This document shows, piece after piece, positions 23,231 through 55,377 of a stretch of DNA of 64,000 bases. This stretch comes from Yuukianura sp. NJ FZ-2021 (Eukaryota). The notes below the pieces were generated by a model. That model was not told the DNA's origin. It made no database searches and saw only the letters and a program-made list of their open reading frames with translations. Location: contig CM102285.1 of assembly GCA_046563655.1 (NCBI GenBank), positions 14,322,001 to 14,386,000 on the forward strand. Direction: 5' to 3'. Position numbers and translations under genes: made by a program. Positions within the stretch are counted from its first letter, which is position 1; the number at the start of each line of letters is the position of its first letter.

Positions 23231-24388
23231 ATGGGTTTTGCTGGGGCACTTTTGTTATTTGGAGTCTGGGTCCTTGGCCAACCAGTTTTTGCTGCATTCG
23301 AAGCTCCTGCCTGTATAACCGCAAAAAACGGATCTCTGGTCAGTTTTTAAAAAATAAATGAAAAATTTTGTCGAAAATTTCTGGAAAAGTTTTTTAAAAT
23401 CATGTTTTAACATTCCTGAACAGGAGATGATAGAAGTGACTGAAGATAGACTCAAGTGGGCTCAAGAAGGGGTCGACGCTCACAACAAACTTCGCAAGAA
23501 ACATGGTTCAAAATAGTTTCAAAATTTAAAAAAAAAATCCGTAAAGTAAATAATCTGAAAATTTGAAGACGTTTGTGGTAAATTTTAGGCGTTCCTCCTC
23601 TGGTGCTCAACCCCGAGGTGGGTTTCTTCAGTTTGAGCAAAGCGACACATCAAATTCTTCACAACTTATTGAGTTACTTTGACTAAATTCGATTACTTTG
23701 ACTAAGAATCGATTACTTTAGTTGTGCAAGAGTGCTCGGTGGATAGCCAATCAGAACGCAGGAACCGGACAATTGTATCATACTCAACAAATCGATTGGG
23801 TTAAGATGGACTGTGGGGAAAATTTGTTCGCGACCGGTGAAGACAAGCTGATGCCAGCCAGTGAAGCTGTAAATGATTGGTACGCCGAAATCAAAGACTA
23901 CGACTATAGTAAACCAGTGTTTGGAATGAACACTGGTCACTTCACACAAGTCGTCTGGAAAGGTAATGTTGTTTCAAAAACTAACAAATTTTGAAAAAAA
24001 AAAGTTTAGAAAAGTTTAAACTTAATTGGAAAATTATTGTTTAGGATCCAAGGAAGTGTGCATGAGCTATGAATACTCAGAAAAGGGAACATATCACTAC
24101 TTTATTGCAGCTCAGTACTATCCCCCAGGTTGGTAACCAAACGTTTTTTTAAGATGTTGTATTTGGAAATGTTGTTCAATTTTGAAAATTGAATTTCCTT
24201 TTTGAATAGGAAACTATAAAGGTGAATTTGGAGAGAACGTATTGGGTTCAGCTAACGACGCAGACGTCAAACCTGGAACGGGTTCAGCTAACGACGCAGA
24301 CGTCAAACCTAGAACGGGTTCAGCTAACGACGTCCACTTCAAACCTGGAATCATTTGCATTTTGATTCTTTGTGTACATGTTTACTAA
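23231..24388 (+). CDS. Secreted CAP-superfamily (SCP/GAPR-1/antigen-5-like) protein with a repeated C-terminal stalk and hydrophobic tail
   Basis: Six exons: signal peptide MGFAGALLLFGVWVLGQPVFA; HNKLRKKHGVPPLVLNPELCKSA; LYH; CGENLF; AVNDWYAEIKDYDY; GHFTQVVWKGS; AAQYYPPGNYKGEFGENV; tail IICILILCVHVY*. Confidence 0.9.
24244..24350 (+). repeat. Coding 36-bp tandem repeat x3 (GSANDADVKPGT)
   Basis: gggttcagctaacgacgcagacgtcaaacct(g/a)gaac occurs twice, followed by a diverged third copy. Confidence 0.9.
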
Positions 24389-34329: not shown

Positions 34330-35109
34330 ACGCTTTGATCATGAAATAGAAAGTTGTTGTCATTTCAACCGAAGGGTTTAGTTTTTTTTAAGTTTTTATT
34401 TCCTCGGATAGAAGACGCACTTGAAGTTAGGTTATATTAGAATTTTTCGATTGTTGCGTTCAGGAGCGTTCATTTGAATGATTTAAAAATCGAAGCATTC
34501 GACAGCATAAGATACTAATAGTAGTAACATAGCATAAGTACTTATACGGATCGGCCATTTGTAATATTTATGTCGAAAACCACTATACCGATTTCCATGC
34601 GGATTTTGTTAATTATTCTTTTATCTGACGTGATGGCTAAAAATTTGTTTTTGGATTGACCTCAAATATCTAATAGTGTCAAAGGTCAAGGTCATCGGTT
34701 TCTCTTGAATTCAGAAACGGAAAGACGGATTCAGAAGCGGTTGACGGGAATGAATCTTTGAGAACACGAGGACTTAGATCCCGACTGTTGTTTGATCTCA
34801 AGTGACCTCTAGCAATGGGTCAACAATATTATGCACGAGAATTCTCTATAATATTGATCTGACGATACTTACTTATAAGTTTTTATTCACACAATATGTT
34901 AATCCATGGATTACAACTAAACCTAATTCTCCGCAACTCATTTCAAGTGGAGTGATAATTATTTCAAAATTTCCAAACACTTTAGATCGAAATTATGATA
35001 ATCTTCAATTACATTCAGCTGATGATCAGAATTTGGCAATTATAATTAGGTGACCCTAAAAAAATCGGAGCATTTCCAGAAAAAACTTTTTGGCAAAGTT
35101 TTTTTCAAA

Positions 35110-37443: not shown

Positions 37444-37799
37444 ACAAAAAAAATTCGCTTAAAAATTGGAAAATAAATATACGTTTTTGAAAAAAAAATA
37501 TCCCAAAGACCACTCGAAATTGTTTAGCAACAACAAAAATGGTACAGAACGGTAATTGAAACTAGCTATTGCCGTAATTTTTGCAAATACGTCAACATTT
37601 TGGCCCAGTGGTAGAAAAACTTGTTTTATTTAGTAGGCAACTACTGTCCAATGTTTTTTCATTGTATTGTTTGTTGATATATTTTTTTAAGATTTTTCTT
37701 TTAAAGAAGTTACTTTCTTCCGCTAAGCACGCATGATTACGTACAAATAATAATAAGAAAACGAGAAAGCAATTTTAGCTACATCGTAGTCCAAAAGTT

Positions 37800-38237
37800 T
37801 AAAAAGTTCGAGCTATTCTCAAACCTGTTGAAGAAAAACCTTTTTGTTATTTACAAACCTTGCACACGATTAGTCGGTCCACAATCAATTAAGAAGTTAA
37901 TTGACGTCACGATTAGTCGGTCCCTGATCAATTGAAAAGTTAATTGAACAATGGATACTAAGAATTATCGTTCTCTATATCTCTGCGCGGAAGGCGCGTA
38001 TTAGGTTATTACTGTAAAATAGCAATAATTGTTAGGCTCTATTGGTTACAAAACTAACATTTTCATTCTATATGTGGAATTCACAGTATTAATTATAATT
38101 TTAATTAACAAATCTTACCAAAGAGGAGGTGAAGTCTGCAAAAAGCTCATTGCACATTCGGAATTGATTCCAAGAATTTGATGCAAAACGAATTTTTACC
38201 AAAACATTGCAGCTCCGTTTTGCCAAATTTGCTTCCA
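37800..38237 (+). promoter_or_regulatory. Conserved upstream block shared by CAP-derived genes A-D (also about 41915-42349, 45250-45686 and 53895-54239)
   Basis: Tandem GATTAGTCGGTCC-like units each followed by CAATT(A/G)A..GTTAATTGA, plus GTG(G/A)AATTCACAGT(G/A)TTAATTA, at matching distances from each ATG. Confidence 0.7.
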
Positions 38238-41200
38238 ATGGGGTTTGATAGTGTTGGGTTGTTTGTGGGAGTTTGGTTCATCAGTTTACTGATTCTTCCT
38301 TCATCAACATTCTCTGCTACACCTTGCGTCTACGCTAGAATGGATACAGGAGTGCCTGGACTTGGAGGAATTGAAAGAGCGGTATTCAAAAATAAAAACA
38401 GTGTGTTTAGAAAATTCAAGTATTCTTTGACATTTTTTGTACAGGAGGCGCCATTACCCGTAGATACCAACAGAATCGCATGGGGAAAGGAAGGGGTGGC
38501 AAAGCACAACGAATTCCGTAACGAGCTTGGCATTATTGGTGGGAAGCGTTTAAAACACACCCTTTTTTAGTGAGATTGTTTTTCAAATTATTGGAACATT
38601 TTTGTTCAATTTTAGGCGTTCCTGATATCGTATTCAACCGCGAGGTGAGTTTCTTTGAGTTTTAGTTGGAAGCTGGTAACCGTTTAGTAGTCTGATGTTT
38701 CAAAATGACGATAACTTAAGTAGCGAAAGCAGTCGATTTTTTTCAAACTAAAGTCGATTGCTTTATGGCTAAAAATCGATTTTTTCAGATGTGTGAAGGA
38801 GCTCAATGGGTAACAAATAAGCTTACACGTCCTGGAGAACCTTTCGTCCGCGCGGGTGAAATGGATTCCGTTGTCATGAGATGTTCAGATTTCATATGCC
38901 AGAGGCAAGCACAAAAACCCGCCTTGGCCAGTGAAATTTCAAATTGTTGGCTGAACAAAACGCAGGAAGTAATTGAAATCTTAACAGGTCAGTTTGAGCA
39001 AAAACAAACTTGTGCTCCGTCATTTAAAAAAAAATGGTTCAAAGATACCGCATTTCCTCGCTTATTATACGCCGCGTATTATCTGTGAAATTAAAAAAAA
39101 AAAATTGAACCAAAAAATATAGTTTTTTTCCCGCTGAAAACTGGAGTTTCGAAAGTTTGAACATAAGATATTGCTTCAGAATTACTATCACGTTCAAGTT
39201 TAGGTGTAGGTATTCTTGCTATTGAGGTACCGTAAATGCTCTAATGCAAGCGCGTATTCTAATATAAGCGCATACTCTAATGCAAGCGCGTTTTCAGCGG
39301 GGGCAAATTGCGATATAAGCGCGGTAGCTAACTTGAGTTTAAAGCAGAGCCTAGAGCAAAGTGACTTAATCTGTTTAACTTCTATGTTGCTAATTTGACT
39401 CAAATCAAAATGTAGCACTTAAATACAAGTTTTAAAAATGGTGTAACTAAAAGACGATTCTTTGATCTCAGTTATAAGTTAAAAGTGGTTCAGTACGCTT
39501 CTACTAATACCACGGATGGTACCGCAGCTCACTTAAGAATACACCGAAAACAAGTCTTCAGTTGGCTGAAGCAAAAGGATAAAATCGGTAAAAATTTAAC
39601 TAATTTTAGCTTTCGACTCGAGAAAACAACTTTCTAAAGAAGCAGACAAAATGGTTTACGATTGGATTTTAAATCAGCGCACCAACCAGCAAAGTGTCTC
39701 CTTCAAATCGATTCGTGTGAAAGCTATTAGGGAAGTCTACTCTGCAGTGCTTCAAACAAACGAATTTCAGGCCAGCAGTGGTTGGCTACAAAAATTTATG
39801 AAGCGCTATGACCTCAGTTTGAGAAAGAAAACGTCGTTGGCTCAAAAAGATACAAATTCGTTATTTGAGAAGCTTGTTGAGTTCGTCATGTACACTTCCA
39901 ACCTCGGTGTTAGGAATAAAATTTCCAACCCAAATATTATTGCCATGACTGGAATATTTTTTGACATCCAAGTATTACTACAGTGGGCACAGTTGGAGGA
40001 GGCTTGAAGAAAGCAACAGTGACACCAGCGACGAATGGGATCACTATTAATTCAATTTTGGCTCACTTAAAACTTATTAATTATTCCGGTAATAAATAGT
40101 GTTCTAATACAGGCGCGTCCGAAAGGTCGAAAATTCTTATAAGCGGCGCGCTTATATTAGAGCATTTACGGTATGTTTGGGAAATTCTTATTGAGTCTTA
40201 TACGCGAGTGCGTCTTAAAGGCGAGGAAATACTGTATGTTTTTTCTTTTTCAGCTGCGAGAGAAATGTGTATCACCTACAAACATAATGAAATGGGAGTG
40301 TATTACTATACTGTTCACTTCTTTCCACTACCACCACCACCAACACCACCACCACCACCAATAAGAACTCCACCTTGCGTATACGAAAACGGAAAACCTG
40401 TGGTCGGTTTCAAAAAATTATAAGAAAATTGAAGACTTGTGTTGGAAAATTCAAACATTTGTACTTTTTAACAGGAGGCACCATTTCCCAATGATGGTAC
40501 AGACAGGATCGCATGGGGGGAGGAAGCGGTTGCATCGCATAACGAAGTTCGCAAGGACCTAGGTCTTATTAGTTGTTTTAAAGAGACACAAATACAAGTT
40601 GGCTGGTTTTTAAATGAGTCGTTTTCAAATAATTGGAATATTTTTTGTTAAATTTCAGGCCTTCCTGATATCGTTTTTAACCCCAGGGTGAGTTAAATTG
40701 GAGGGTGTTAACCGCTAATCGTGTTTTAAAATGGCGATAGCTAAGGGCCCGATGAACTCGATTGTTTTAAGACTAAAATCGATTTTTTTTCAGATGTGCG
40801 GAGCTGCTCAATGGGTATCTAACAAGAATGCACGTCCTGGAAGTTTCACTCGCTACCGTGCAAGTCAAATGGATTCCGTTAGCATGCAATGCGCAGATGC
40901 TCAATGTATGACTGGCTCAAACCCACCCATAGTCACCAGGGCGAGTGACATTTTCAAAACTTGTTCGCTGGGCTCATTCCCAGAATCATATGAAATCTTA
41001 ACAAGTAAGTTGTAGCAAAAACAAATTCACGTTCCGTAATTTAAAAAAAATTCTTCCAAATGTCTTTGTTCTCTTTTTCAGCTGCGAGAGAAATGTGTAT
41101 GACCTACTCATTTGATGGAGAGAATACGTTTTACTATATTGCTCACTACTTTCCACCACCACCAAGTCCGTTTGTGACAAAAACGTGTTTTTTTAAATTC

Positions 41201-41408
41201 AAGCTCTTTTCTTGAAAAACGAAATTTATCATGTTGATTTTGATTTTAAACAGAGCCTCATGATTCTGGTTATGTTGCTCCAGAATTTGACATTGAGCAC
41301 TATCCAACACCAAATCCACATGATCCTACACGAAGGCCACGCGATCCAAAAATCCCTACTGCTCCACCTTGCATCTACGAAAATGGAAAACCTATTATAT
41401 GTACATAG
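38238..41408 (+). CDS. Divergent CAP-derived secreted protein A: two domains, Pro-rich linker and the stub of a third domain
   Basis: Signal peptide, then two rounds of the exons EAP..DRIAWG.E.V..HN..R | G.PDI.FN | MC..AQWV.NK...C....C...C...LT | AAREMC.TY...YY..H.FPPPP. Ends PPCIYENGKPIICT*. Intron 4 holds nested transposons. Confidence 0.75.
39048..40234. mobile_element. Outer non-autonomous TA-flanked DNA transposon (Tc1/mariner-pogo type) in CAP-A intron 4
   Basis: TA|CCGCATTTCCTCGC ... GCGAGGAAATACTG|TA inverted ends. The homologous intron in the paralogous domains lacks this insert. Confidence 0.75.
39230..40171 (+). mobile_element. Internally deleted pogo-family transposon nested in the outer element; transposase remnant (Brinker-like DBD plus CENP-B HTH, DDE domain missing)
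   Basis: TA|CCGTAAATGCTCTAATGCAAGCGCG ... CGCGCTTATATTAGAGCATTTACGG|TA; subterminal CTAATRYAAGCGC repeats; KRRFFDLSYKLKVVQYA...RKQVFSWLKQ and VYDWILNQR...FQASSGWLQKFMKRYDLSLRKKTSLAQK. Confidence 0.88.
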
Positions 41409-41632
41409 AACTGAACATTGTAAACAAATACGGAAGAAAACTAGTGTCAAGGGCTTTTAACCCTAATTTAATTAACCTGACCGGTTGACCAATTATAGAA
41501 TTAGGGAGGTCGATAAGTTAGAAAACTTAAGAGAGGCATGATACCTTCTAGTTATAATTTAAGTGGACACGGAAGAGACAAAAAGAGTGAAAAAAACAAC
41601 AACAGAATTTGCGACAATAGTTACGTGATTAT

Positions 41633-41828
41633 TAGACATGCCACAAGTATTTACTAAAAACCCTCGAAATATTTAAACATTAAATATTTTTCATCAAAAG
41701 CCTCAAAATATTTACTTAATTAACATTAAGGGATGGGAAAATCAATAAATATTTAGTAATAAAAATGCCCAAAATATTGATTTTGTTAACATTACAGGTG
41801 TGGGAACTAAATATTTTTGGCATGTCTA
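41633..41828. mobile_element. 196-bp MITE with TAG-starting TIRs and a 6-bp target duplication (hAT-like)
   Basis: gattat|TAGACATGCCACAAGTATTTA ... TAAATATTTTTGGCATGTCTA|gattat. Confidence 0.75.
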
Positions 41829-42349
41829 GATTATGAGATCATATCTCGATTTAGGCAAAAGACAACTCTGGAAATAAAAAAATAAAGGAATTTTTGCTAA
41901 ATCTTTAACAAAATTGAAAAAGCTCGAGTTATTGACAGACCTGTTGAAAAAAACTATTTTCTTTTTCACGAACCTTGGCCATGATTAGTCGGTCCGCAAT
42001 CAATTAAAAAATTAATTGACGCCACTATTAGTCGGTCCCAGATCAATTGAAAAGTTAATTATTGAACAATAGATGCTTACTAACTGTCGCTTGTTATATT
42101 TCCGAAGGTGAATATTAGGTTATTCGCATGAAATAATAATAATTGTTAGTCGCCATTGATTACCACAAAAATTCCCATTCTGAAAGTGAAATTCACAGTG
42201 TTAATTACAATCTTAATTAAACAATCTTACCAAAAGAGGAGGTGAGCCAGCCAAAAGCTGATTTCAGATTCGGAATCTACACCAAGAAATTGGTAAAAAA
42301 CGAATTTTTAATGTTAAAAAATCGCAACTCCGTTTTGTCAAAGTTTCCA

Positions 42350-44576
42350 ATGGGTTTTAGTAGTCGTGGGTGGTTGGTTGGCGTCTGGTTCATAAGTCAA
42401 CTGATTCTTCCTTCATCAACACTATCAGCTACACCTTGCGTATACGAAACCACAGAATCAAACCAGCTAGAGAGAACTTCAAGAGTGGTAATCAAAAATA
42501 AAAATTTGTGTTTAGAAAATTCAAACATTGACATTTTTTGTACAGGAGGCGCCATTACCCGTAGATACAGACAGAATCGCATGGGCAAAGGAAGGGGTAG
42601 CAAAGCATAACCAATTTCGCAAGGAGCTTGGCATTACTGGTTAGAAGTGTTTTAAAAAGAAACACAAAGTGCTAATGCGAATGTTTTTCAAATTGTTGCA
42701 ATATTTTTGTTCAATTTCAGGCGTTCCTGATATCCTATTCAATCCCGAGGTGAGTTTAAAGAGTTAGAGGGTGACAACCATGAACAGTCTGATGTTTCAA
42801 AATGGCGATGACTATAATTGTCCAAAGCACTCCATTGCTTCGAGACTAAAAATCGATTATTAAATCGGTTGATTTAATTATCCCATTGACTAAAAATCGA
42901 TTATTTGCAGATGTGCGGAGGTGCTCAATGGGTATCAAATAAGCTTACACGTCCTGGAGAACCTTTCGTCCGCGCGGCTCAAATGGATTCCGTTCTCATG
43001 AAATGTGCAGATTTTATATGCCAGAGACAAGCACAAATACCCGCCTCGGCCAGTGAAATTTCAAATTGTTGGCTGAACAAATCGCAGGAAGTAATTGAAG
43101 TCTTAACAGGTGAGTTTGAGCAAAAACAAACTTGTGCTCCGCAAAATGCTTCAAATGTAACTTTTTCACTTTTTTTTAGCTGCGAGAGAAATGTGTATCA
43201 CCTACAAACATAATGAAATGGGAGTGCATTACTATACTGTTCACTTCTTTCCACCACCATCACCACCACGTCGTGCTCCACATTGCATATACGAAAACGG
43301 AATACCTGTTGTAAGTTTCAAAAAAAGTACTCACGAGGAGAGGCTTTCAAACATTTCTCAAATTAAGTTATAGGACTAGTCGCCAAAAATTTCTTCTAAT
43401 TAAAGAAAACTTTTGACACTATTACTTTCGTTTCAAAACGCGAAAAAAGTGTCAGAATTTTTCTTTAATTATAAGAACTTTTTCACGACTGGTCCCATAA
43501 TTTATTTTGAGAGACGGTTGAAAGCCTCTCCTTGTCAGTACTCAGAAATGAAGACCTACGTTGTGAAAATTCAAACATTTTGTGGTATTTTTAACAGGAG
43601 GATCCATTACTCATGGATGGTACTATAGACAGAATCGAGTGGGCAAAAGAAGGGGTTGCAAAGCATAACGATTTTCGCAAGAAGCTTCTTAAAATTACTG
43701 GTTATAAAATACACAAAAACAACTTGTTAGGTTTTTAATCCTTTTCAAATTAATGAAATTTTTTTGTTCAATTTCAGGCGTTCCTGATATCGCGTTCAAC
43801 CCCAAGGTGAGTTGAAGGGTTGGACGGCTAAAAACGGCTAATCGTCTTATTATTGTTTCAAACTAGCGATAAATGTGCGAACCACTCGATTTGTTTTGAG
43901 TCTAAAAGTCGATTACTTTGTGACTTAAAATCGATTATTTTCAGATGTGTGGAGGTGCTCAATGGGTAACAAATAAGCTGGCACGTCTTGTAGAACCTCC
44001 CTTCGGTGCGAGTCAAATGGATACCTTAAGCATGCAATGTTCAGATCTTAATTGCTGGTTATCAAATACCACTGTAACCGTCTCGGCGAGTCACGTTTCA
44101 GATTGTTGGCTGGAGGGAACGCAAGAAGAAAGGGCCATCTTAACAGGTCAGTTTGAGCAAATACTCAGTTTGAGTGTTCCATAATTTTAAAAAAGGTTGT
44201 TCCAAACGTGTTTGTTCTTGTTGTTCAGCTGCGAGAGAAATGTGTATGACCTACACTGGTAATGGAAACGGAATCTTTTACTATACTGCTCACTTCTACC
44301 CGCCACCACCAAGTCCGTTTGTGATAAAACATTTTTAGTTTAAAACAAGTTCTTCTCTTCTTGAAAATCATAATTTTCCAAGATTGTTTTTAAACAGAGC
44401 CTCATGATCCTGGTGCTGTTAGTCCTCCAGTAGGTGGGCATTATGCAACACCAACTCCACGTCCACCACCAATTGCACGTCCACCACCAACTACTCCACG
44501 TCCATCGCCAACTACTCCACGTCCGCCACCACCGACGAAGCCTCCTCCTCCGCTAGATTTTGTGATTATTACTTAA
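42350..44576 (+). CDS. Divergent CAP-derived secreted protein B: two domains plus Pro/Thr/Arg-rich tail
   Basis: Ten exons with the same module; ends ...PTPRPPPIARPPPTTPRPSPTTPRPPPPTKPPPPLDFVIIT*. Confidence 0.78.
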
Positions 44577-45686
44577 GTTAGTTTATTGGTTACGTTTAGT
44601 TCGGTTGGGATGTAGCGAGATTAAGCGCGTGGAGATTTGAGATACGGTGTAGTGAGGAGAAATATTTTTAGGGCGTTTTAGTGTAAGTAATAGAGTGAAT
44701 TGGATATTTGTGTTAGAGAGAGTTAGGGCGATCAGAGACAAAAAGTTATGATTGATACTTATTAGCAGTTAGTATTCATATATTCATTAAATAATATTTA
44801 TCCATCGATGCTTCATCTGATTGCGTCTAAGAAAACGGAAATTCTTTTTTTTAGTTTTTCAACTGTTTTAAAAAAAACAAATGTACTATTCTGGGTAGCA
44901 TTGCTGATTGCCGCTGACCTCCAATTTGTTGTTAGCGGTTTGGCTTTGACAACACGAATAAGTTCAAGAACTCATAATAAAATCAGCAAAAAACCTTGTA
45001 ATGGAAACAATGAACATTATCAGTTGAAGGCACGATTAGACGGTGTACGATCAATTAAGAAATTAATTGCGCCCTTGATTCAAGGTTGGTCCCTGTAGTT
45101 AGGAAATAGTTTTCTTTGACAAGTTTTAGACAAGGGGTACGTTTTTCAAAAAATTCACAGCATGCATGAACTTCTCTGCTTCAATCTCGTTTAATAACAT
45201 ACAAATAATTGCTATAGACCGTGAAACCAATTGGCGTTTTTAACAAAATTTAAGAAGTGTCAGTTATTGCCAAACCGTTCGAGAAAAAAAAATCTCGTTG
45301 TTTGCGAACCTTGGCCACGATTAGTGCGCCCAAAATCAATTGAAAAATTATTTGACGTCACGATTAGTCGGTCACCAACTGAAAAATTAATTGAACAATG
45401 GATACTAAGAATTATCGTTCTTTGTATCTCTGCGTCGAAGACGCGTATTAGGTGATTAGTGTAAAATGGCAATAATTGTTGGTCGAAATTGATTACAAAA
45501 TAAAAAATTTCATTCTGTACGTGGAATTCACAGTGTTAATTACAATCTTGATTAACCAATCTTACGAAACAGTGGGTGAGTCCACCACAAGCAAATAAGT
45601 AGATTTGGATTATGAACCAAGAAATTGATACAAAAAGAATTTTTATTTCACAAAAATTGCAGTAACCTTTTGCCGATTTTTTCCCG

Positions 45687-48600
45687 ATGGGTTTTGGTGG
45701 TTGTGGTTTGTTGGTTGGCGTTTGTTTCATCAACCAGATGATTCTTCGTTCATCAACACTGTCTGCTACACCTTGCGTGTACGAATTTGGAATAGTTGCA
45801 GTCAGTTTTTTCAAAAATATATAAAAATTATTCCGAAATACGAATGTTTGGTAGAAAAATGAAACATTCTGAGACATTTTTTAACAGACGGCGCCATTTC
45901 CCTGGGACGGCGTAGACAGAACCGCATGGGGAATGGAAGGGCTCAAATATCAGAACGAATTTCGGGAAAGCCTTGGTCTTGGTTAGAAACGTTTTTAAAA
46001 CGACACAAAACACTTTGGTTTTGAATACGAAATTTTACCAAATTCTAGTCATATTTTTTGTTTAATTTTAGGACTTCCCCCTCTCGTATACAACTCCCAG
46101 GTGAGTTGATGACTGGGGACTGTAAATCGTATGCTGTTTCAAAATGCCCGGCGGGCTGCACTAAAAATCGATTACGTGGTGACTAAAATCGATTCCTGAG
46201 TGAATAAAATCGATTATTTTTAGATGTGTGGAGGCGTTCAATGGGTAGCAAATAGACTTGCACTTCCATGGACACCGTTCGGCTTTTCGTCCGAGTTCCT
46301 ATTCGTTCAATCTAAATGTGGTGAACTAATATGCAGGAGTGCCAGACTTGCCTCGGCGAGTGAAGCTGCAAAGCTTTGCGGACTGGACAAGCTCGATCCC
46401 AAACTGACAAAGGAACTCATGATCGGTAATTTTGAACATGAAATTATTATTCCGCAGTTTTTCAATATAGAAAGTCGCTCCAAATGTCTTGTTCTGTATT
46501 TTAGCTGCGAAAGAAGTGTGTATCAGCTACGCGTATAATGGATTTGGGACGTATTACTATGTTGCTCACTACTTTCCACCACCACAACGACCTACTCCTC
46601 CAATGTGCATATTCGAAAATGGAAAACCCGTGGTAAATTGCAAAAAACTATAAAAGTATTAAAAAATAAAGACATGTTAATAAAAAATATTCTGGGACAT
46701 TGGTAACAGACGGCGTCGGCGCCTGTTCCCAATGATTTAATAGACAGAGTCGCGTGGGGGAAGGAAGCGGTCAAATATCAAAACGAATTTCGCCAATCCC
46801 TTGGTTAGACATTTTTTTTTAAAAACGACAAAAAACACTTTTTTAATACCACGTTTTTCCAAACTTTTGGAATATTTAAGTACTTTTTCTGCACTAATTA
46901 CAGGACTTCCTCCTCTCGTGTACAACCCCCAAGTAAGTTGAAAGTCACAGCGTAAACACTAGGCTGTTTTGAAATGAATACTTAAAGTGCTCGACCCACT
47001 GCACTTAAATTCGATTACTTAGTGACTAAAATTCGATTATTTTCAGTTGTGCGGAGGCGTTCAATGGTTCACAAATAAGCTTGCAACTTTGGGAACACCG
47101 TTCGACTTTTCGTATAAACTTCCATCCGTGGAAACGAAATGTGCAGAACTAATATGCAGGAAAGGAACAGCCTTTACCTCGGAGCATTGGGTTGCAAAGG
47201 AGTGTGCGCTGGAACTGGCCAATGATAAACTCGGAAAGGAACTCATGACGGGTAATTTTGATTTTTGAACAAAAACTCATCATTCCGTAATTTTTCAAAA
47301 AAGAAACTCGCTCCAAATGTCTTGTTCTGTTTTTCAGCTGCGAAAGAAGTGTGTATCACCTACACACGTTATTTCTTCGGAGAGTTTTTCTATGCTGCTC
47401 ACTACTTTCCACAACCACAAAAACCACCACCACCAAGTCCTGCTACTTGTGTATACGAAAAAGGAAAACCAGTGGTCAGTTTCAAGAAATTCTAAGAAAG
47501 TACTCAAGAATGAGAATCTGTGATGGAAAATTCAAATATTCTTTCACATTTTATTTTGTACAGGAGGCGCCATTGCCCGTTGATGTAGACAGAATAGCAT
47601 GGGGAAAAGAAGGTGTTGCAAGGCATAACCAATTTCGCAAGGAGCTTGGCATTACTGGTTAGAAACGTTTAAAAAAAACTAAAGCAACATGCTTGGTTTT
47701 TAGTGCGACAGTTTTTCAAATTATGGGAATATTTTTGTTCAATACTAGGCGTTCCTGATATTGCGTTCAACCCCAAGGTGAGTTTAAAAGAGTTGGAGGC
47801 TGATGAAACCGTTACTCGTCTGATGTTTCAAAATGGCAATAACTAAGTCCGCGATGCACTTGACTGATTTGAAGACTAAAATTCGATTACTTTGCGACTA
47901 AAGAACGATTTCCTTGTAACTAAAAATCGAATACTTTGTGACTAAAAATCGATTTCTTTCAGATGTGTGGAGGAGCTCAATGGGTAACAAATAGGTTTAC
48001 ACGTCCAGGAGAGCCTTTCGTCCGTGCGGGTCAAATGGATTCCGTTAACATGAGATGTACAGATTTTATATGCCAGAGACAAGCACAAAAACCCGCCTCA
48101 GCCAGTGAAATTTCAAATTGTTGGCTGAACAAAACGCAGGAAGTAGTTGAAGTCTTAACAGGTCAGTTTGAATAAAACCAAAAAATCAATTCGTGTTATC
48201 GCGTTCCGCAATTTAAAAAAAAATGTTTCAAATGTCTTTGTTCTCTTTTTCAGCTGCGAGAGAAATGTGCATCACGTACTCACATAATGAAATGGGAACG
48301 TACTACTATACTGTTCACTTCTTTCCAACAAAATCACCGCCAACCTCACCACCACCAAAAACAACGCCACCACCAACAAAGCCACCAGCAACACCAGCAC
48401 CAACAACACCAAGGCCACCATCGAGAGGTCCTCCACCTTGTATATACAAAAACGGAAAACTTATGGTCAGTTTAAAAAATTTAACAAAGATACTGAAAAC
48501 TGAACAGAAGACCTGTACTGGAACATTTAAACTTTTTAAAAAACAAAACTTTTCAAACTTTTTTGTGTCATTTTTTACCAGAGTGACCCATTTCCCAATG

Positions 48601-49547
48601 ATGGTACAGACAGGATCGCATGGGCAAAGGAAGGGGTTCCAAGGCATAACGAACGTCGCAAGGAGCTTGGCATTACTGGTTAAAAGCTTTTTTTTTAAAA
48701 ACACAAAAGCAATTTGCAAATTTGCTGTTTTTAAAGAGAATGTCTTTCAATATTTTTGTTCAATTCTAGGCCTTCCTGATATCGCATTCAGCCCCGATGT
48801 GAGTTTAAGAGCCGCAGGCTGACAATAATTAATCGTCTCATGTTTCAGAATTAATGATAATGCCAGCAGCACACGATTCTTTTGAGACTAAATCGATTAC
48901 TTTGTGACTAAAAATCGATTATTTTCAGTTATGCGGATCGGCTCAATGGAGGACGAATAAATTTGCACGTCATGAAGAAAATGATTTGCGCGGGGACTCC
49001 ATTTACGAGGAATGTGCAGCTCTTGCATGCGTCTCTCTGCCGGCAGACAAACTCAACATTGCGAGTAACGTTTCTAATTGTATGATGACGCAAACTGACA
49101 TGAAAAAATTAGTTGATGTCTTAACAGGTCAGTTTGAGGAGAAACAAATTCGTGTTCCGTAATTTAAAAAAAAGTTGTTCGAAACGTCTTTGTTCTCTTT
49201 TTCAGCTGCGAGAGAAATGTGTATCACGTACGCACATGATGATCAGAAGGGAGTGTGGTACTATATTGCTCACTACTATCCACCACCACCAAGTCCGTTT
49301 ATTATGATCACACATTTTTTTTCAAATTCAATTTCGTTGGTTGAAAAACTTAATTTTTCGTTTTTTTTTAACAGAGGGTCATGATCCGGGTTCTAGTTAT
49401 CCAGAAGGTAGAGGTGTGTACTATCCAACACCAACTCCACGTGCACGAACAACTTTACAGGCACCACCTCCGGCGGCGCCTCCTCCACCTCCACCTCCTC
49501 CTACTCCTGCTCCTCCTCCAGCTCTAGGTTATACTTTTATTGTTTAG
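45687..49547 (+). CDS. Divergent CAP-derived secreted protein C: four domains with Pro-rich linkers and tail
   Basis: Signal peptide plus four rounds of the 4-exon module (large exons start about 46223, 47047, 47963 and 48929); ends ...PPPPPPPPTPAPPPALGYTFIV*. Confidence 0.78.
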
Positions 49548-49770
49548 GTTAGTGAATTGGTTGTTAGGCTAGGTTGAGATGTGGTGAGATGAGTGCTGGA
49601 GATTTGAGTTCATAGCGATGTGGTGAGGAGAGATAAACGGATACACCCAAGCTTATTAAAGGACGAGAGGAAAAAAACTTGAAAAAGAGATGAAAAGAGA
49701 CAAAAAATCTCCGTGTTTGGTCAGCCCCCTGCAATCAGCACCATTAGCAACCAACGCAATTTTTTGTTTG

Positions 49771-49911
49771 TGACGTCACCAGCTGAAAAAATACCGTAAT
49801 CGTGATATTTTAACCCGCAGGCATCTATGTAAACAAGATGCGGTTTGCGGGTTTCTATAGGACACCATCATTAATACGCAGAATTCCGGTATTTTTCAGC
49901 GGGTGACGTCA
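49771..49911. repeat. 141-bp imperfect hairpin bounded by TGACGTCA palindromes
   Basis: TGACGTCACCAGCTGAAAAAATACCG ... CGGTATTTTTCAGCGGGTGACGTCA, with an inner stem AACCCGCAGGCATCT...AGATGCGGTTTGCGGGTT. Confidence 0.75.
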
Positions 49912-49975
49912 TTTTTTTTTCCACATGGCAACCAAAGAAACTTTCTATCCGCACTACCTAGTAGTATTCTATTTA

Positions 49976-50381
49976 CTGTTCAGATCAAATAAGAAACCGC
50001 AAAAACACCTGCACGTCGCTATGTGCTTTTTTCCCATAAGAAAAAAGAAGCTACTCACTCCTGCCTTCTTTCCCTGAGAAAAGAGGGAAGATTCTTTTTT
50101 GACAGCGAAAAGGAAGAGAATTTCCAGTTGCGCGGCTTGCAGGTGTTACCGCCAATAAATGATTTTTTTCTAAAGGAAGAACTCACAAAAAAAAATAGTT
50201 TCTAGAGATAACACCTGCATGCCGCGCAATTTCTAATTCTCTTCTTTTTCGCTGTCAAAAAAGAATCTTCCCTCTTTTCTCAGGGAAAGAAGGCAGGAGT
50301 GAGTAGCTTCTTTTTTCTTATGGGAAAAAAGCACATAGCGACGTGCAGGTGTTTTTGCGGTTTCTTATTTGATCTGAACAG
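49976..50381. mobile_element. 406-bp foldback MITE with near-perfect arms of about 170 bp, TA-flanked
   Basis: TA|CTGTTCAGATCAAATAAGAAACCGCAAAAACACCTGCACG... mirrored by ...CGTGCAGGTGTTTTTGCGGTTTCTTATTTGATCTGAACAG|TA. Confidence 0.9.
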
Positions 50382-50950
50382 TACCTTCGTGTTTGGTGGG
50401 AATTTTTTTTTGATCTTTTTTAAATTTTCTTTAGTGTCTTTCTTTAGGAAGCCCCAGATAGCGGATTTTTGTGTATAGTTTATGTTATGCTTCCTTACGT
50501 ATACGCTTTGATTTATATTTTACTTGGATTTGGATTCTTGTTTTTAAGAAAAGATTTTTTTCAAATTCCGTTTTTCGTGCAAAATTAGAACTTATTAGAC
50601 TAACTTTGACGTTGATTTAATTCAATAGCGATTCATTTTTGAAATTTTTAAATATCTTGACCGTGAAACAACTGAACAGTATAATTAAATGCCGACTAGT
50701 TTACCTGACCATTCTCTAAGACGTTTTTATTTTCCAGGAAGCACTTTATCGGCCTTTCAATCAACATTAAACAGACGCTATGCATATTATATATGATGCG
50801 TATAGGGAACAAAAGAATTTAATTGAGGTTAATTGAGCTGAAATTAACCTGCTTCAATCAAAGTCCTGTTAAACAGATTTAATACCTTTTAGTGCTGATT
50901 TAGAATCCCATCAGTGTTGAATGTTAGAAATATTTGAAAAAACTACAAAA

Positions 50951-51704
50951 ATGAAGTTGGCGTTTCTCGCACTGGTGACCGTTTCTCTCTACTCAACAAC
51001 GTTCCCAATGGTAATCAGACCAGCGAAATGTAAGAAACGCAATTTTTTGAGTTCTTTTTTTTCAAGAATTAAAAAAAAACATCTGGAAAATTTTCGTTAT
51101 TCATTGTCCAAGCATTCTAACAACGAAAACATTTTGTTGTTTTTAATAAGGCAAAGAAATGAAAATCCACGACGTGAGGGTGGAAGGGTGCACGGCTGAG
51201 CCATGTAAAATTATGAAGGGTACAAACGTGCCCATTGAAGTGGACTTCGAATTTCAAAAACCAAAAGTAGCCTCCAGCATTTGGCTTTCAGTCACGGTCA
51301 GGGGATGGGCACTGAAAAGTTATAGGCAAGGCAGCGAAGGAATAGAAGTCTCGACTCAAGAAGACGACTGCAAAAGACTGAAAATTTCACAATGTCCGGC
51401 AACATCAGGCGTAAAACATACGCTAAAGTCAGCAATTCACATCGACCCGGACGCCAAGGATGCAAAAACGTCAAGCCAAGCGGTAATTCTTTGATATTTT
51501 AATTCTTTTTTGTTTTACTTTTTTTATATTTAAATTGTAATCTGTTAATTAATTCTCACCATCAGTAATAAGAACAACATAAAGAAGAAATTTTTATTTT
51601 AGGGGGAAGGAGAAGCAGCAGTTGAAGTCATCACTGTGGTGGACGACAATCAAATACCCTCATCTTGTTCTTTCCCATTGATGTTACAAATTGTATCAAA
51701 ATAA
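50951..51704 (+). CDS. NPC2/ML protein, copy 2 (inside the CAP array)
   Basis: Same 3-exon structure; VRVEGCTAEPCKIMKGTNVPIEVDF...DDCKRLKISQCP...SSCSFPL. Confidence 0.82.
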
Positions 51705-51846
51705 ACGGTTTAGTTTACGAACGAGGATTCGTAAAATGTTCATCTCCGCCTAACCTTGTTTTCACTCTACGTGTTTTAATTCCAAAGCGTTTCTTTTCTG
51801 ACTTTTAGCAACGGTGACTTCGTGCCCAATACTCTGAAAATATTTA

Positions 51847-52400
51847 CCGTAAATCTTCTAATGCAAGCGCGCACTCTAATAGAAGCGCAGACTCTAATGC
51901 AGGCGTGGTTCCGAAGAGTGAAAATGAGATATAAGCGAGGTATATATTTAAGTTAAATTTAGAAGTGAATTCTCCGATTCTAGATTAACATCCTGTCACT
52001 ACCTGTTGGTCTCTAAATCCAACAGTAAACAATACTAAGCTAAGATGAAGTTTTAAATGGGAAACTACAGTTTGTCTCTTCTTAGAAGGCACTTTTTGTT
52101 TTCGTCGTTGTTTCGCTTCCATTGCGACGCTTATGGAAAAACTCAGTTTTTCAAAAACACTTTCTCCGTTAAGGTTTCTACACAAAATTTCAAAATATTG
52201 ATAATTTCTATGTTAACGTTCCATAAGGCAACTGGAATTGTTTTCAAATTTGAAAAGTGCCTTTTAAAAAGAGACAGATCGTTTGAGCTTAGCTTTAAGT
52301 TACAAGTGATCGAATATTCTTCCACATGTACTAACGGACACTTTGGCATAGTACAACGGAAACACTTGAGCTGGGTTAAACAAACGATAAAGTATACGTA
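51847..52400 (+). mobile_element. Truncated second member of the pogo family seen at 39230
   Basis: Left TIR TA|CCGTAAATCTTCTAATGCAAGCGCG, subterminal repeats, and KRDRSFELSFKLQVIEYSS...RKHLSWVKQ homologous to the Brinker-like DBD at about 39450. Confidence 0.75.
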
Positions 52401-52863
52401 ACGGTCATCTCAAATTTAATTAATCATATGATTATTGAATCGGATATTTACTTTTTTTATCATCTTTGTCAAAACTGGTTGAGTTTATTAATGCACGAAG
52501 AAAATAACCTAAACAGTGAGCGGCATTAGTGAAAAGGTCAAACCATAGACACTTTTAAATGTTTTTAAACACTCGGGAAAATGTTTCTGAAATCCTAGGG
52601 AAAATCCAGAAAACCTTAGTTTTCTGGACGAACTGTACTGTTTTCGTCACCTACTTGTCCGATGTTTTGATTATCAGCGTGTGCTAATGCGAAAAGTTTT
52701 TTAAGCGCCTAACCAATCATACAGGAGATGCATCTGAAGATTGGGTCAAAGTTCCCGAAATTCTTGTTTACAATTTACTATGACGTCACTAAGAGTTGGG
52801 GTGACTTGAGAATTGAGTCTCAGAAGTGGCTCATCTACTTCGCCATCAAGGTTGGTAAACAAG

Positions 52864-53095
52864 CAGATTGTTGATTGCTACAAGAGGTTATTCATTAACT
52901 CGACGTTTTTTAATTTTGTTAAATAATTTGCAAAACTTGCTTCACCGTGCCTTACTATGGTAATGATTTGTATGTAATGTAACGGAATTGGTTCAAAATT
53001 TTGTTCAAAAATTTTGTTTTTGTTCAAAAAAAGTTGTTTTCACGCAATTTTTAAACCTCGGAGGTATTGAATAACCTCTTGTAGCAATTCAATCG
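52864..53095. repeat. Inverted repeat element (MITE-like) with arms of about 50 bp
   Basis: ATTGCTACAAGAGGTTATTCA at 52874 and TGAATAACCTCTTGTAGCAAT at 53068, with weaker extension on both sides. Confidence 0.7.
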
Positions 53096-53715
53096 GTTGC
53101 TATAGCATACCTATCTATAAATATGTATGCTATCGCCATACATATTTAGAAAAACCCGCGAAGGAGCCTCAAATTTGAAATCCAACGCAGTGATTCGCGA
53201 GTTAGCATGAGTTGTGCAAAATTTCAATCGTAAAGAATCCACCCGTCCGGGTTTTACCAAGGCAACTAAACAAAAAGACACACGCGCTTCAGTCGCCATC
53301 CAACCCATTTCCGATTTCGCAAAACCCATGAGTCAACAAGTGGAGCAGTTCATGAGGAGATCTGCTGGAAATTGACCGAAGTTAGCATTGAAGAAAGGAC
53401 TGAAGAATCAAATTGAATAACAAAGTTTAACTTACCAAGATGTTAACAAGATGACATGGGTCACCAACCAGCCATTTCTATCAATCGGCCTTGGTGGGGC
53501 AACCGCCTTATTTGGGTGGCTCGGATATAAGACTTGTGATTACAACAATAAAGGACTTCCAATAACTTTTAACGGAAATGGTGAAAATAATGGAAATAAT
53601 ATTATGAAGTGTTTCAAAATGTAATGTCTAGTGGACGAATTGAATAATGTAAAGATATTCTTATTCTTATTTTATTTATAATTTTTGTAATTATTTTTGG
53701 GCGGAACATTCACTT

Positions 53716-53878
53716 GCGCGCAATCTCTAATCTTCGTCTCTTTTTTGAAAAGAGAGCTGTCAAAAAAGAACTTCCCTCCTTTTGCGGGAGAGGAATGGAG
53801 AAGTGAGTAGCTTTTTTTTTCTTATGGGAAAAAAGCACATGGCGACGTGCAGGTGTTTTTGCGGTTTCTTATTTGATC
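53716..53878. mobile_element. Solo, more diverged right arm of the foldback MITE at 49976
   Basis: ...GTGAGTAGCTTTTTTTTTCTTATGGGAAAAAAGCACATGGCGACGTGCAGGTGTTTTTGCGGTTTCTTATTTGATCT. Confidence 0.85.
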
Positions 53879-54239
53879 TTTGGTTTTCTAACATTGGCCT
53901 TGAATCATGGCCCATGATTTGTCGGCGCACGATCAATTGAAGAATTAATTGAACAATGGATACTTATGAGTTGTTGATTGTTACATCTCTGAGCCGAAAG
54001 CGCGGGGTTCGTTATTACTGTAGAATAGCATTTATTCTTAGTCGCTATTGGTTACAAAATAAAAATTCTCATTCTTTGAGTGGAATTCACAGTGTTAATT
54101 ACTATCTTAATTAACAAATCTTACCACGGCGTGGGCGTGACTGCCAAAAGCAAATTTCAGATTCTCACGTTACGCCAAGAAATTCAGATATATTTTTAAT
54201 ACCGAAAATCGCAGCGCCGCTTGGTCGAATTTGTTCCCA

Positions 54240-55377
54240 ATGGGCTTCACTTATAGTGTTATGTTGGTGGGAACATGTTTCATCAATATACTTCTTTTTG
54301 TTTCACCAACAGTATCTGCTCCACCTTGCATATACCGAAATGGACAAGCTATGGTTAGTTTTGAAAAACTATAGGAAATGTTACTAAAAAGATATAGACC
54401 TGTGTTAGAAAATTCAAAAATTGTGTGACATTTTTTATCAGGAGGCGCCATTTCCTAATGATGGTACAGATAGAATCGCGTGGGGAATGGAAGCGATTGC
54501 AAGGCATAAGGAGTTACGCACAAAGCATAACATTACTGGTTAGAAAAAAACACAAAAATAACTTGTTTTTTAATAAGACCATTTCAAATTATTGCAATAT
54601 TTCTGTAACATTTAAGGCCTTCCTGATATCGTGTTCAATGCCTCGGTGAGTTTAAGAATTGAAGGCTGATCCCGGTTAATCGTGTTATGTCTCAAAATGA
54701 CGATACCTAAGTGGCCGAAGCTAAGGCGTTTTTTTTTAGACTAAAAGTCGATAGTTTTGAGACTAAGAATCGATTATTTTCAGATGTGCGGAGCTGCTCA
54801 ATGGGTATCAGATAAGTATGCACGTCCAGGAGAACTGGACGCCCGTGCGACTGAAATAGGTTCTACTAGCATGCAATGTACAAATTTTGTATGCAAGAAA
54901 TCACCAACACGAAAAATCGAATCCGCGAGTAAAATCACGTACTGTTTTCTGGGCAAACTGGTCAAAACACAAGAAGTAATAGCCGTCTTAACAGGTCAGC
55001 TTGTCAGTTTGAGAAATTTGTGTTATCTGTTCCGTAATGTCAAGAAGAATTGTTTGAAATATCTTTGTTATCTTTTCTAGCTGCGAGGGAAATGTGTATC
55101 ACCTACACATTTAATGGATCGAAAACCGTTTACTATAGTGTTCTCTACTTTCCACCACCACCAAGTCCGTTGTGGAAAAAATGTTTTTGTTTGAAAACCT
55201 TAATCCTTATATCGTTTTTAAGTAGGGCCTCATGATCCTGGTGCTGTTAATCCAGAAGGTGATGATGGGGACTATCCGACACCAACTCCTCGTTCACGCG
55301 CAACTGCATCTCCACCACCAAGTGAACATCGACAACAACCTTCGGTACCTGTTCTAGGTTATTCTTTTATTGTTTAG
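54240..55377 (+). CDS. Divergent CAP-derived secreted protein D: single domain plus tail
   Basis: Six exons: MGFTYSVMLVGTCFINILLFVSPTVSAPPCIYRNGQAM|EAPFPNDGTDRIAWG...|GLPDIVFNAS|MCGAAQWV...|AAREMCITY...|...VLGYSFIV*. Confidence 0.78.

What the first reader, a model, noticed from the sequence alone, without database searches (positions are those of the whole stretch)
38238..55377. Modular family of secreted multi-domain proteins built from a degenerate CAP domain that has lost its cavity residues
Seen: four genes (2, 2, 4 and 1 domains) use one 4-exon module whose intron positions and phases match the canonical CAP gene at 23231. Against that gene, CGENLFATG becomes CSDFICQRQ, PASEAVNDWYAE becomes LASEISNCWLNK, the loop IKDYDYSKPVFGMNTG is largely deleted, and GHFTQVVWKG becomes TQEVIEILTA. 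Known: the His/Glu/Glu/His tetrad and the GHFTQ motif define the CAP central cavity. Inference: all nine domains have lost the cavity and gained a new Cys pair, leaving a repurposed disulfide scaffold with variable surface loops strung on Pro-rich, extensin/mucin-like spacers. It could act as a diversified multivalent binding system (immune, glandular, adhesive or reproductive secretion). Standard CAP signatures may miss it.
Basis: partly seen in the sequence, partly recalled or inferred. Interest (0 to 1): 0.85.

Follow-up and report, generated by a model that had tools for sequence, protein, structure and literature searches.

The report
Secreted tandem arrays of degenerate CAP domains
Four neighbouring animal genes encode secreted chains of one to four domains that descend from an ordinary CAP (sperm-coating/PR-1 type) gene next door but have lost its metal site and its sterol-binding loop, a moderately interesting, fast-evolving offshoot of a well-known protein family.

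Summary
Gene models built from GT-AG introns give four intact genes with 2, 2, 4 and 1 domains at 38238-55377. All nine domains use the same four-exon module, including a 29-nt micro-exon, with the same intron phases as the canonical GLIPR2/GAPR-1-like CAP gene at 23231-24388.

Homology to that gene is solid: 76.6 bits against at most 5.9 for 2000 shuffles. Generic CAP profiles barely see the domains.

- **Lost:** both zinc histidines and the second glutamate are absent in 9 of 9 domains. The 16-residue caveolin-binding-motif loop is cut to 2-4 residues in 9 of 9.
- **Gained:** two new invariant cysteines.
- **Control:** none of 393 foreign GLIPR2-like domains has a loop under 10 residues.

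Reading frames are kept under selection, yet overall omega is about 1.1 and 1.5 in the former cavity segment.

I found no relatives, no RNA data and no way to fold a spliced domain here. Function as a multivalent binding scaffold is inference. Multi-domain and tetrad-less CAP proteins are already known, so this is a new variant of a known kind.

The parts
23231..24388 (+). Canonical CAP gene (CAP0). Six exons, 240 aa, GLIPR2/GAPR-1-like. It has the full His/Glu/Glu/His tetrad, a caveolin-binding-motif loop and a hydrophobic C-terminus.
   Evidence: Model. Pfam CAP on exon 4: E 1.5e-4, 23 bits against a cut-off of 21.1. PDB hits Pry1 and GAPR-1 at E 6e-10 and 1.6e-9. 137 bits to a foreign CAP profile. 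C-terminal hydropathy 2.18.
38238..41408 (+). Gene g1. Signal exon, domains D1 (38445-40402) and D2 (40475-41165), then a Pro-rich tail exon (41254-41408) that ends in an orphan copy of the inter-domain Cys motif.
38988..40253 (+). Long intron (1266 nt) inside D1 that carries a fragment of a pogo/Tc5-type transposase.
   Evidence: Pfam HTH_Tnp_Tc5 at E 5e-13 and BrkDBD at E 4e-7 on ORFs 39600-40007 and 39416-39637. Intron length.
42350..44576 (+). Gene g2. Signal exon, domains D3 (42546-43310) and D4 (43598-44312), then a Pro-rich tail exon (44398-44576).
45687..49547 (+). Gene g3. Signal exon, domains D5 (45888-46632), D6 (46710-47474), D7 (47564-48465, with a Pro/Thr linker of about 40 aa) and D8 (48582-49292), then a tail exon (49375-49547).
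54240..55377 (+). Gene g4. Signal exon, single domain D9 (54442-55164), then a tail exon (55226-55377).
42721..42749 (+). Example of the 29-nt micro-exon (phase 1 to 0). It is present at exactly 29 nt in all ten modules, CAP0 included.
42911..43109 (+). Example of exon B (D3). This is the remodelled former cavity segment: tetrad residues replaced, loop excised, two new Cys.
   Evidence: Omega is 1.53 in this segment across the nine domains.
42850..42910 (+). Example of the conserved intronic element: tandem units of about 22 nt with an ATCGAT core, ending at the acceptor of exon B. It is found in all ten modules.
   Evidence: 31 pattern matches against 2.5 expected. Alignment with 19 invariant columns.

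Best explanation
**Shown**
- The region is a tandem cluster of four protein-coding genes. They arose by duplication of the neighbouring GLIPR2/GAPR-1-like CAP gene and by internal duplication of its four-exon domain module.
- Each mature protein has an N-terminal hydrophobic signal-like segment and no other hydrophobic stretch.
- Each carries one to four CAP-derived domains with six Cys apiece, joined by proline-rich (in one case Pro/Thr-rich) linkers and ending in a proline-rich tail.
- The domains keep counterparts of all helices and strands of the CAP sequence. They have lost three of the four metal-site residues and the 16-residue caveolin-binding-motif loop that CAP proteins use for sterols.
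- They carry two new invariant Cys, one next to each former Glu position.
- Reading frames, splice sites and Cys are kept by selection, while the rest changes about as fast as silent sites. Change is fastest in the former cavity segment.

**Inferred**
- The CAP sandwich survives as an inert scaffold stapled by three disulfides.
- The remodelled former cavity face is the new contact surface for protein or glycan partners.
- Stringing two to four different domains on stiff linkers gives multivalent extracellular binding. The role would be in recognition (immune, reproductive or adhesive) rather than in metal or sterol handling.
For: **Gene structure.** 45 of 45 modelled introns are GT-AG (by design of the junction search). 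Phases 0,1,0,1 and a 29-nt micro-exon occur in 10 of 10 modules.

**Homology.** The family profile scores 76.6 bits on CAP0, against at most 5.9 in 2000 shuffles. BLASTP gives E 9e-13 to 6e-23 over about 130-140 residues for 9 of 9 domains. HHalign against 230 foreign CAP domains gives 95% probability and E 2e-8, but only over the first 49 columns.

**Losses and gains.** His1 0 of 9; Glu1 2 of 9 (Asp in 5 of 9); Glu2 0 of 9; His2 0 of 9; loop cut from 16 to 2-4 residues in 9 of 9; new Cys pair in 9 of 9.

**Comparison set.** Of 393 foreign GLIPR2-like domains, 390 have a 16-residue loop and the shortest is 10. 303 have the full tetrad and 327 have the motif pattern.

**Cysteines.** Six Cys per domain; extras lie only in the signal segments and the g1 tail.

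**Hydropathy.** N-terminal peaks are 1.5-2.7. Nothing elsewhere exceeds 1.35 in g1-g4.

**Selection**
- About 30 nonsense changes would be expected on the tree and none is seen (rough P 1e-13).
- D1/D3/D7 pairs have dN/dS 0.26-0.49.
- Omega is 1.09 overall, 0.69 for exon A plus micro-exon and about 1.18 for exon B.
- Omega is 1.53 in the former cavity segment, with 2dlnL 3.99 against omega = 1.

**Site roles from the literature.** Tetrad and zinc histidines: passages of PMC4921858 and PMC6900432. Caveolin-binding-motif loop and sterols: passages of PMC10189770.
Against: - There is no transcript evidence and no fold prediction for a spliced domain.
- There are no orthologues, so all selection estimates come from paralogues in one genome. 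Gene conversion and alignment error in the variable segment can distort them.
- Omega near 1 in the remaining columns (0.95) also fits relaxed constraint.
- The test for omega above 1 is marginal: 2dlnL 3.99 with one degree of freedom, kappa fixed.
- An acidic residue remains at the first Glu position in 7 of 9 domains.
- The most conserved part is helix 1, which in other CAP proteins lines a fatty-acid pocket. A small-ligand role is therefore not excluded.
- Pairing of the two new Cys with each other is assumed, not shown.
Confidence: 0.5

Rival explanations
1. The genes are young duplicates drifting under relaxed constraint, on the way to becoming pseudogenes. The divergent 'new' features have no function.
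For: Omega is 1.09 over the whole domain and 0.95 outside the cavity segment. No relatives were found in any library. There are no expression data.
Against: There is no stop or frameshift in 9 domains, although about 30 nonsense changes would be expected. All 40 introns of the four genes keep GT-AG and their phase. Six Cys are invariant in 9 of 9 domains. dN/dS is 0.26-0.49 among D1, D3 and D7. The 5' flanks are conserved in all four genes.
Confidence: 0.15
2. The domains are still lipid carriers. They would use the helix-lined fatty-acid pocket known from tablysin-15 and proposed for SmVAL4, instead of the lost loop and metal site.
For: The helix-1 exon is the best conserved part (omega 0.69). 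The HNxxR motif is kept in 6 of 9 domains. It is the only part that a foreign CAP profile aligns. SmVAL4 binds cholesterol without the tetrad (abstract and passages of PMC4118828). Lipid-handling genes lie nearby: two sphingomyelinase-like and two ML-domain genes.
Against: In SmVAL4 and Pry1 sterol binding is tied to the caveolin-binding-motif loop, which is deleted here in 9 of 9 domains. The pocket residues could not be mapped without a structure. Gene neighbourhood in an animal genome is weak evidence.
Confidence: 0.15
3. They are structural or adhesive matrix proteins (cuticle, egg coat, cement or mucus). The proline-rich segments would do the work and the CAP-derived knobs would serve as cross-linking or spacing units.
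For: Pro content is 10-12%. One linker is a Pro/Thr stretch of about 40 aa. The tails are conserved, proline-rich and contain Tyr, with a shared C-terminal hydrophobic motif in three of four genes.
Against: Linkers between most domains are short, about 10-17 residues. The domains rather than the linkers make up most of the protein and hold the invariant residues. No matrix-protein family was matched by the tails or linkers (0 of 5 pieces).
Confidence: 0.15

Closest known systems
GLIPR2 / GAPR-1-like CAP proteins, including the multi-domain forms annotated in fishes, amphibians and some invertebrates
   Same: The neighbouring parent gene is of this type: its exon B hits 559 proteins, most named GLIPR2 or GAPR-1. 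In that set, 112 of 118 proteins hold 2-7 CAP domains, so tandem arrays are common. The C-terminal strands lack the usual Cys of secreted CRISPs, as in GAPR-1.
   Different: In those arrays 303 of 393 domains keep the full tetrad and 390 of 393 keep the 16-residue loop. Here 0 of 9 keep either. The window's family also has signal segments, a third Cys pair and proline-rich linkers.
SmVAL4 (Schistosoma mansoni) and tablysin-15: CAP proteins without the zinc histidines
   Same: Both lack the prototypical CAP motifs and tetrad histidines while keeping the sandwich fold (abstract and passages of PMC4118828).
   Different: They are single-domain proteins. SmVAL4 keeps a central cavity, binds cholesterol and has a caveolin-binding-motif loop. 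The window's domains have that loop deleted and occur in arrays.
Na-ASP-1 and other tandem-CAP proteins of nematodes; the eight-domain protein of Raphidocelis
   Same: Covalently linked CAP domains in one secreted chain (passages of PMC10189770 and PMC4921858).
   Different: Those domains are recognisable CAP domains with cavities joined in a cleft. No sequence relationship to them beyond the superfamily was found here.

Membership tests
CAP / SCP / PR-1 superfamily (Pfam PF00188) | Full-length sequence homology to a bona fide CAP domain | tested here: met
   Profile of D1-D9 against CAP0: 76.6 bits, best of 2000 shuffles 5.9. BLASTP E 9e-13 to 6e-23 for 9 of 9 domains. CAP0 is itself bona fide.
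CAP / SCP / PR-1 superfamily (Pfam PF00188) | Score above the curated Pfam threshold | tested here: not met
   Exon B alone: 0 of 9 domains hit CAP at E up to 10, while the canonical exon B scores 23 bits against a cut-off of 21.1. Whole spliced domains could not be given to the Pfam tool. A stand-in profile of 230 foreign domains gives 6.2-15.7 bits, all nine above the best shuffle of 4.5.
CAP / SCP / PR-1 superfamily (Pfam PF00188) | Alpha-beta-alpha sandwich fold | not testable with these tools
   The structure tools take only unspliced window sequence or database proteins, and no database relative exists.
CAP / SCP / PR-1 superfamily (Pfam PF00188) | Cavity tetrad His/Glu/Glu/His | tested here: not met
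   His1 0 of 9, Glu1 2 of 9, Glu2 0 of 9, His2 0 of 9. Positions were mapped through CAP0 onto GAPR-1 chain positions 54, 65, 86 and 103 by counting along the alignment.
CAP / SCP / PR-1 superfamily (Pfam PF00188) | Signature motifs CAP1-CAP4 (consensus for CAP3 and CAP4 taken from PMC4118828) | tested here: not met
   CAP3 (HNxxR) is kept in 6 of 9 domains. CAP4 (G-E/Q-N-I/L/V) is kept in 0 of 9. The CAP1 His-containing motif is kept in 0 of 9. CAP2 was not scored.
CAP / SCP / PR-1 superfamily (Pfam PF00188) | Shared gene structure with a CAP paralogue | tested here: met
   Same four intron positions and phases, and a 29-nt micro-exon, in 10 of 10 modules.
Sterol-binding CAP proteins (Pry1 / SmVAL4 type) | Caveolin-binding motif (aromatic at positions 1, 3 and 8) in the flexible loop before the CAP1 strand | tested here: not met
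   The loop is 16 residues with the motif in CAP0 and 2-4 residues in 9 of 9 domains. Pattern matches elsewhere in 7 of 9 domains lie in the aromatic C-terminal strand, not in a loop.
Tandem multi-CAP proteins | Two or more CAP-derived domains in one chain | tested here: met
   2, 2 and 4 domains in g1-g3 by open spliced models. There is no transcript confirmation.

The most novel reading that the evidence does not exclude
The cluster is a lineage-specific repertoire of variable recognition proteins. The CAP sandwich would have been turned into a disulfide-stapled display scaffold, and its former ligand face is under diversifying selection. Combinations of unlike domains on stiff linkers would give multivalent binding to changing targets such as pathogens or gametes. 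That would be an invertebrate binding repertoire built on a fold not known to be used in this way.
Probability: 0.15. Interest if true: 0.7.

Novelty: new variant of a known kind. Interest (0 to 1): 0.4.

Why it matters
The CAP domain still lacks an agreed function. Its two best-documented activities are divalent-cation binding by the tetrad and sterol binding by the caveolin-binding-motif loop. Here a family sits beside its intact parent gene with both sites removed, a third disulfide added and the reading frames still maintained. That makes it a natural experiment on what the bare scaffold can do. It also shows how a domain can slip below family-profile detection within a single gene cluster.

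If the fast-changing former cavity face proves to be a binding surface, the family would be another case of a secreted enzyme-like fold reused for recognition. If not, it is one more lineage-specific expansion in a superfamily known for them.

Tried and rejected
**Searches for relatives, all blank or spurious**
- Word-indexed search of 5.8 billion proteins with D3 exon B, longer proteins only: 4 candidates, none at E <= 0.01.
- Exhaustive HMMER search of 1.84 billion representatives with the nine-sequence exon B profile: 1 hit at E 2.6e-4. It is a 275-aa internally repetitive protein matched in 5 stretches, rejected as a composition match.
- PDB profile search: 4 hits at E 0.17-0.48, none a CAP protein.
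- ESM Atlas: best score 0.81, below the level that counts as a lead.
- Metagenome contig scan: 1 locus with a 15-residue match in a contig whose ORF translations look like those of a G+C-rich bacterium, rejected.

The source species or a close relative also seems absent from the protein library: the best identity to CAP0 exon B is 71% over 44% of the query, among the 120 hits listed out of 559. The best identity to a neighbouring sphingomyelinase exon is 63%. The blanks are therefore weak evidence of restriction to one lineage.

**RNA.** No RNA holder was listed for 38200-48199, so no reads could be laid.

**Genome and earlier notes.** No whole genome is held for this window. Earlier findings of the scan returned nothing in three look-ups.

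**Pfam on short pieces.** Tails, one linker and exon A pieces gave 0 of 8 matches. CAP0's own exon A also gave none, so that test has no power.

**Structure.** Prediction and fold comparison were not done, because a domain spans four exons.

**Other attempts**
The same junction search was then run from coordinates.
- A read-through from the orphan motif at the end of g1 into g2 was considered. No GT lies at the homologous phase-0 position. It stays open without RNA.
- One paper (PMC3995466) is not held, and one literature search was mis-typed.


Full report
**What is there.** The window is intron-bearing, animal-like DNA of about 37-40% G+C. I translated all frames. I then searched, between fixed in-frame anchor points, for GT-AG introns that keep the frame open. 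This gave five gene models.
- CAP0: 23231-24388, 6 exons, 240 aa.
- g1: 38238-41408, 393 aa, two domains.
- g2: 42350-44576, 395 aa, two domains.
- g3: 45687-49547, 716 aa, four domains.
- g4: 54240-55377, 228 aa, one domain.

The limits of the finding are the ATG of g1 and the stop of g4.

**The domain module.** Each of the nine domains (D1-D9) is built from four exons: 88-103 nt, exactly 29 nt, 199-211 nt, and 84 nt or more.
- Intron phases are 0,1,0,1. CAP0 has the same four introns, the same phases and the same 29-nt micro-exon.
- Introns are 58-287 nt, except one of 1266 nt in D1 that holds a pogo/Tc5 transposase fragment.
- In internal domains the last module exon runs on through the linker into the short Cys-containing N-terminal piece of the next domain. 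In CAP0 and in the first domains that piece lies in the signal exon.
- A tBLASTn of all exon peptides against both strands of the window found no further copies.
- Three junctions have near-equal alternatives. None of the models has transcript support.

**Descent from the CAP gene.** CAP0 is an ordinary CAP protein of the GLIPR2/GAPR-1 kind.
- Its exon 4 passes the Pfam CAP threshold.
- It matches Pry1 and GAPR-1 structures at E 6e-10 and 1.6e-9.
- It hits 559 database proteins, mostly named GLIPR2 or GAPR-1.
- The whole protein scores 137 bits on a profile I built from 230 foreign domains.

The nine degenerate domains are 23-34% identical to CAP0 and 34-85% identical to each other.
- Their profile scores 76.6 bits on CAP0, against a best of 5.9 bits in 2000 shuffles of CAP0.
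- BLASTP aligns 9 of 9 domains to CAP0 over 130-141 columns at E 9e-13 to 6e-23.
- Together with the shared exon plan, this makes common descent secure.

Away from CAP0 the signal nearly vanishes.
- Pfam CAP finds 0 of 9 exon B pieces.
- The foreign CAP profile gives 6.2-15.7 bits. All nine are above the best of 2000 shuffles (4.5 bits) but below Pfam's 21.1-bit cut-off for its own model.
- HHalign against the foreign profile reports 95% probability, but only for the first 49 columns: helix 1, the micro-exon strand and the start of helix 2.

**What changed.** The alignment of CAP0 to GAPR-1 places its His, Glu, Glu and His at chain positions 54, 65, 86 and 103. His54 and His103 are the zinc ligands of GAPR-1 (passages of PMC6900432). 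The four residues form the CAP tetrad that binds zinc or magnesium (passages of PMC4921858). Across D1-D9:
- The first His is Arg, Gly or Phe (His in 0 of 9).
- The first Glu is Glu in 2, Asp in 5, and Ala or Asn in 2.
- The second Glu is absent or replaced in 9 of 9.
- The second His is Gln, Lys or Pro (His in 0 of 9).

The 16 residues between the second Glu and the second His in CAP0 contain a perfect caveolin-binding motif, with aromatic residues at positions 1, 3 and 8. That loop is the one linked to sterol binding in CAP proteins (passages of PMC10189770). It is reduced to 2-4 residues in 9 of 9 domains.

Two Cys absent from CAP0 are invariant in the nine domains. One lies three residues after the first Glu position and one four residues before the second. 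With the four Cys shared with CAP0, each domain has six. The only extra Cys are in the signal segments and in the g1 tail. That the two new Cys pair with each other is inference.

**How unusual this is.** As a control I extracted 393 CAP domains from 118 foreign GLIPR2-like proteins.
- 112 of the 118 proteins have 2-7 domains, so tandem arrays are commonplace.
- 303 domains have the full tetrad, 57 have Asn at both His positions, and 18 have at most one tetrad residue.
- The loop is 16 residues in 390 domains and never shorter than 10. 327 carry the motif.

That set was retrieved by similarity to CAP0 exon B and is therefore biased towards canonical domains. In print, SmVAL4 and tablysin-15 lack the zinc histidines, and SmVAL4 still binds cholesterol. 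Tandem CAP domains are known from Na-ASP-1, and up to eight occur in an algal protein. The distinctive points here are the excision of the loop, the third Cys pair and the proline-rich stringing of unlike domains.

**Architecture.**
- All four proteins start with a hydrophobic segment (Kyte-Doolittle 15-residue peaks of 1.5-2.7) and have no other segment above 1.35. This fits secreted soluble proteins. No signal-peptide predictor was available.
- CAP0 instead ends in a hydrophobic stretch (2.18), which the derived genes replaced by proline-rich tails.
- Pro content is 10-12%, against 5% in CAP0.
- Linkers are about 10-17 residues, except a Pro/Thr stretch of about 40 residues between D7 and D8.
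- The tails share motifs, and three of the four end in a similar short hydrophobic motif.
- The 60 nt upstream of the four ATGs are alike.
- A protein tree groups D1, D3 and D7 (support 81/94) and D5 with D6 (98/100). D2, D4, D8 and D9 are unresolved. This fits repeated duplication of a two-domain unit.

**Selection.**
- Pairwise dN/dS is 0.26-0.49 among D1, D3 and D7, and mostly 0.65-1.37 between other domains. dS is 0.13-0.75, so the domains are not saturated against each other.
- Maximum-likelihood omega over the nine domains is 1.09. It is 0.69 for exon A plus micro-exon, about 1.18 for exon B and above 2 for the short exon C.
- For the segment from the Cys before the first Glu to the end of exon B, chosen because it lined the former cavity, omega is 1.53. 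The test against omega = 1 gives 2dlnL = 3.99, which is marginal. For the rest omega is 0.95.
- Given the tree length of 5.37 changes per codon and a 4.2% chance that a random change makes a stop, about 30 nonsense changes would be expected. None is present (rough P 1e-13).
- 31 of 157 codon columns are constant.

The picture is a conserved scaffold with freely or adaptively changing surfaces, not decay. All of this rests on paralogues of one genome.

**Relatives and expression.** No relative of the degenerate exon B was found.
- Word-indexed protein search: none.
- Exhaustive profile search of 1.84 billion representatives: one repetitive, spurious hit.
- PDB: no CAP hit.
- ESM Atlas: no lead.
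- Metagenome contigs: one spurious bacterial match.

The library does hold many animal proteomes, but apparently not this species or a close relative. No RNA run was listed and no genome is held.

**Reading.** What is shown is a tandem family of intact, signal-bearing, multi-domain CAP derivatives that have shed the metal site and the sterol loop and gained a Cys pair. They evolve fast but under frame-preserving selection.

What is inferred is that the sandwich persists as an inert, three-disulfide scaffold. The remodelled face would be a new contact surface used multivalently outside the cell. Three rivals remain open and are scored in the report:
- drift towards pseudogenes;
- lipid carriage through the helix pocket;
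- a structural or adhesive matrix role.

**Verdict.** This is a new variant of a known kind, and the interest is moderate.

Noticed in passing
window 23632-23721 and the equivalent 90 nt before exon B of D1-D9 (e.g. 42821-42910, 48839-48928): The intron before exon B ends, in all ten modules, in one to three tandem units of about 22 nt with an ATCGAT core and an ACTAA-like stretch about 20 nt from the acceptor. The 9-nt pattern occurs 31 times in the window against 2.5 expected. 19 columns are invariant, although CAP0 and the family have dS of about 1-2. It may be a branch-point or splicing-control element for the micro-exon and exon B pair.
   Followed up: partly
window 39416-40007: A fragment of a pogo/Tc5-type transposase (HTH_Tnp_Tc5 at E 5e-13; Brinker-type DNA-binding domain at E 4e-7) sits in the only long intron (1266 nt) of the family, inside D1.
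   Followed up: partly
window 49974-50383 and 53762-53879: A foldback element: two 196-nt arms, 93% complementary and 18 nt apart. A third copy of one arm (87%) lies 3.5 kb downstream. The copies bracket the ML-domain gene that interrupts the cluster between g3 and g4.
   Followed up: partly
window 30712-33050 and 35050-37450; 33681-34350 and 50921-51500: Two paralogous acid-sphingomyelinase-like genes (saposin-like exon plus metallophosphoesterase exons) and two ML/NPC2-like genes lie around the CAP cluster. Several secreted or lysosomal lipid-handling genes are thus duplicated in one 30-kb stretch.
   Followed up: partly
window 24210-24388: The last exon of the canonical CAP gene encodes three tandem copies of a 12-residue unit followed by a hydrophobic end. 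This looks like a membrane-anchor or GPI-type signal, and the derived genes lack it.
   Followed up: no
window 41360-41408: The tail of g1 ends in an extra copy of the Cys-containing motif that normally precedes a domain. No domain follows it and no GT lies at the homologous donor position. It may be the relic of a lost third domain.
   Followed up: partly
window 21461-22714, 25302-25982, 28271-28522, 28891-29574 (minus strand): Other neighbours: a long open exon with an SRI (Set2-Rpb1 interacting) domain, an exon matching the CatSper targeting subunit tau family, an EF-hand pair, and a granulin gene on the minus strand.
   Followed up: no
window 25979-26450: A low-complexity stretch reads as Lys/Ser/Gln or Phe/Asp/Leu repeats in several frames on both strands. 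It is probably a simple-sequence repeat.
   Followed up: no
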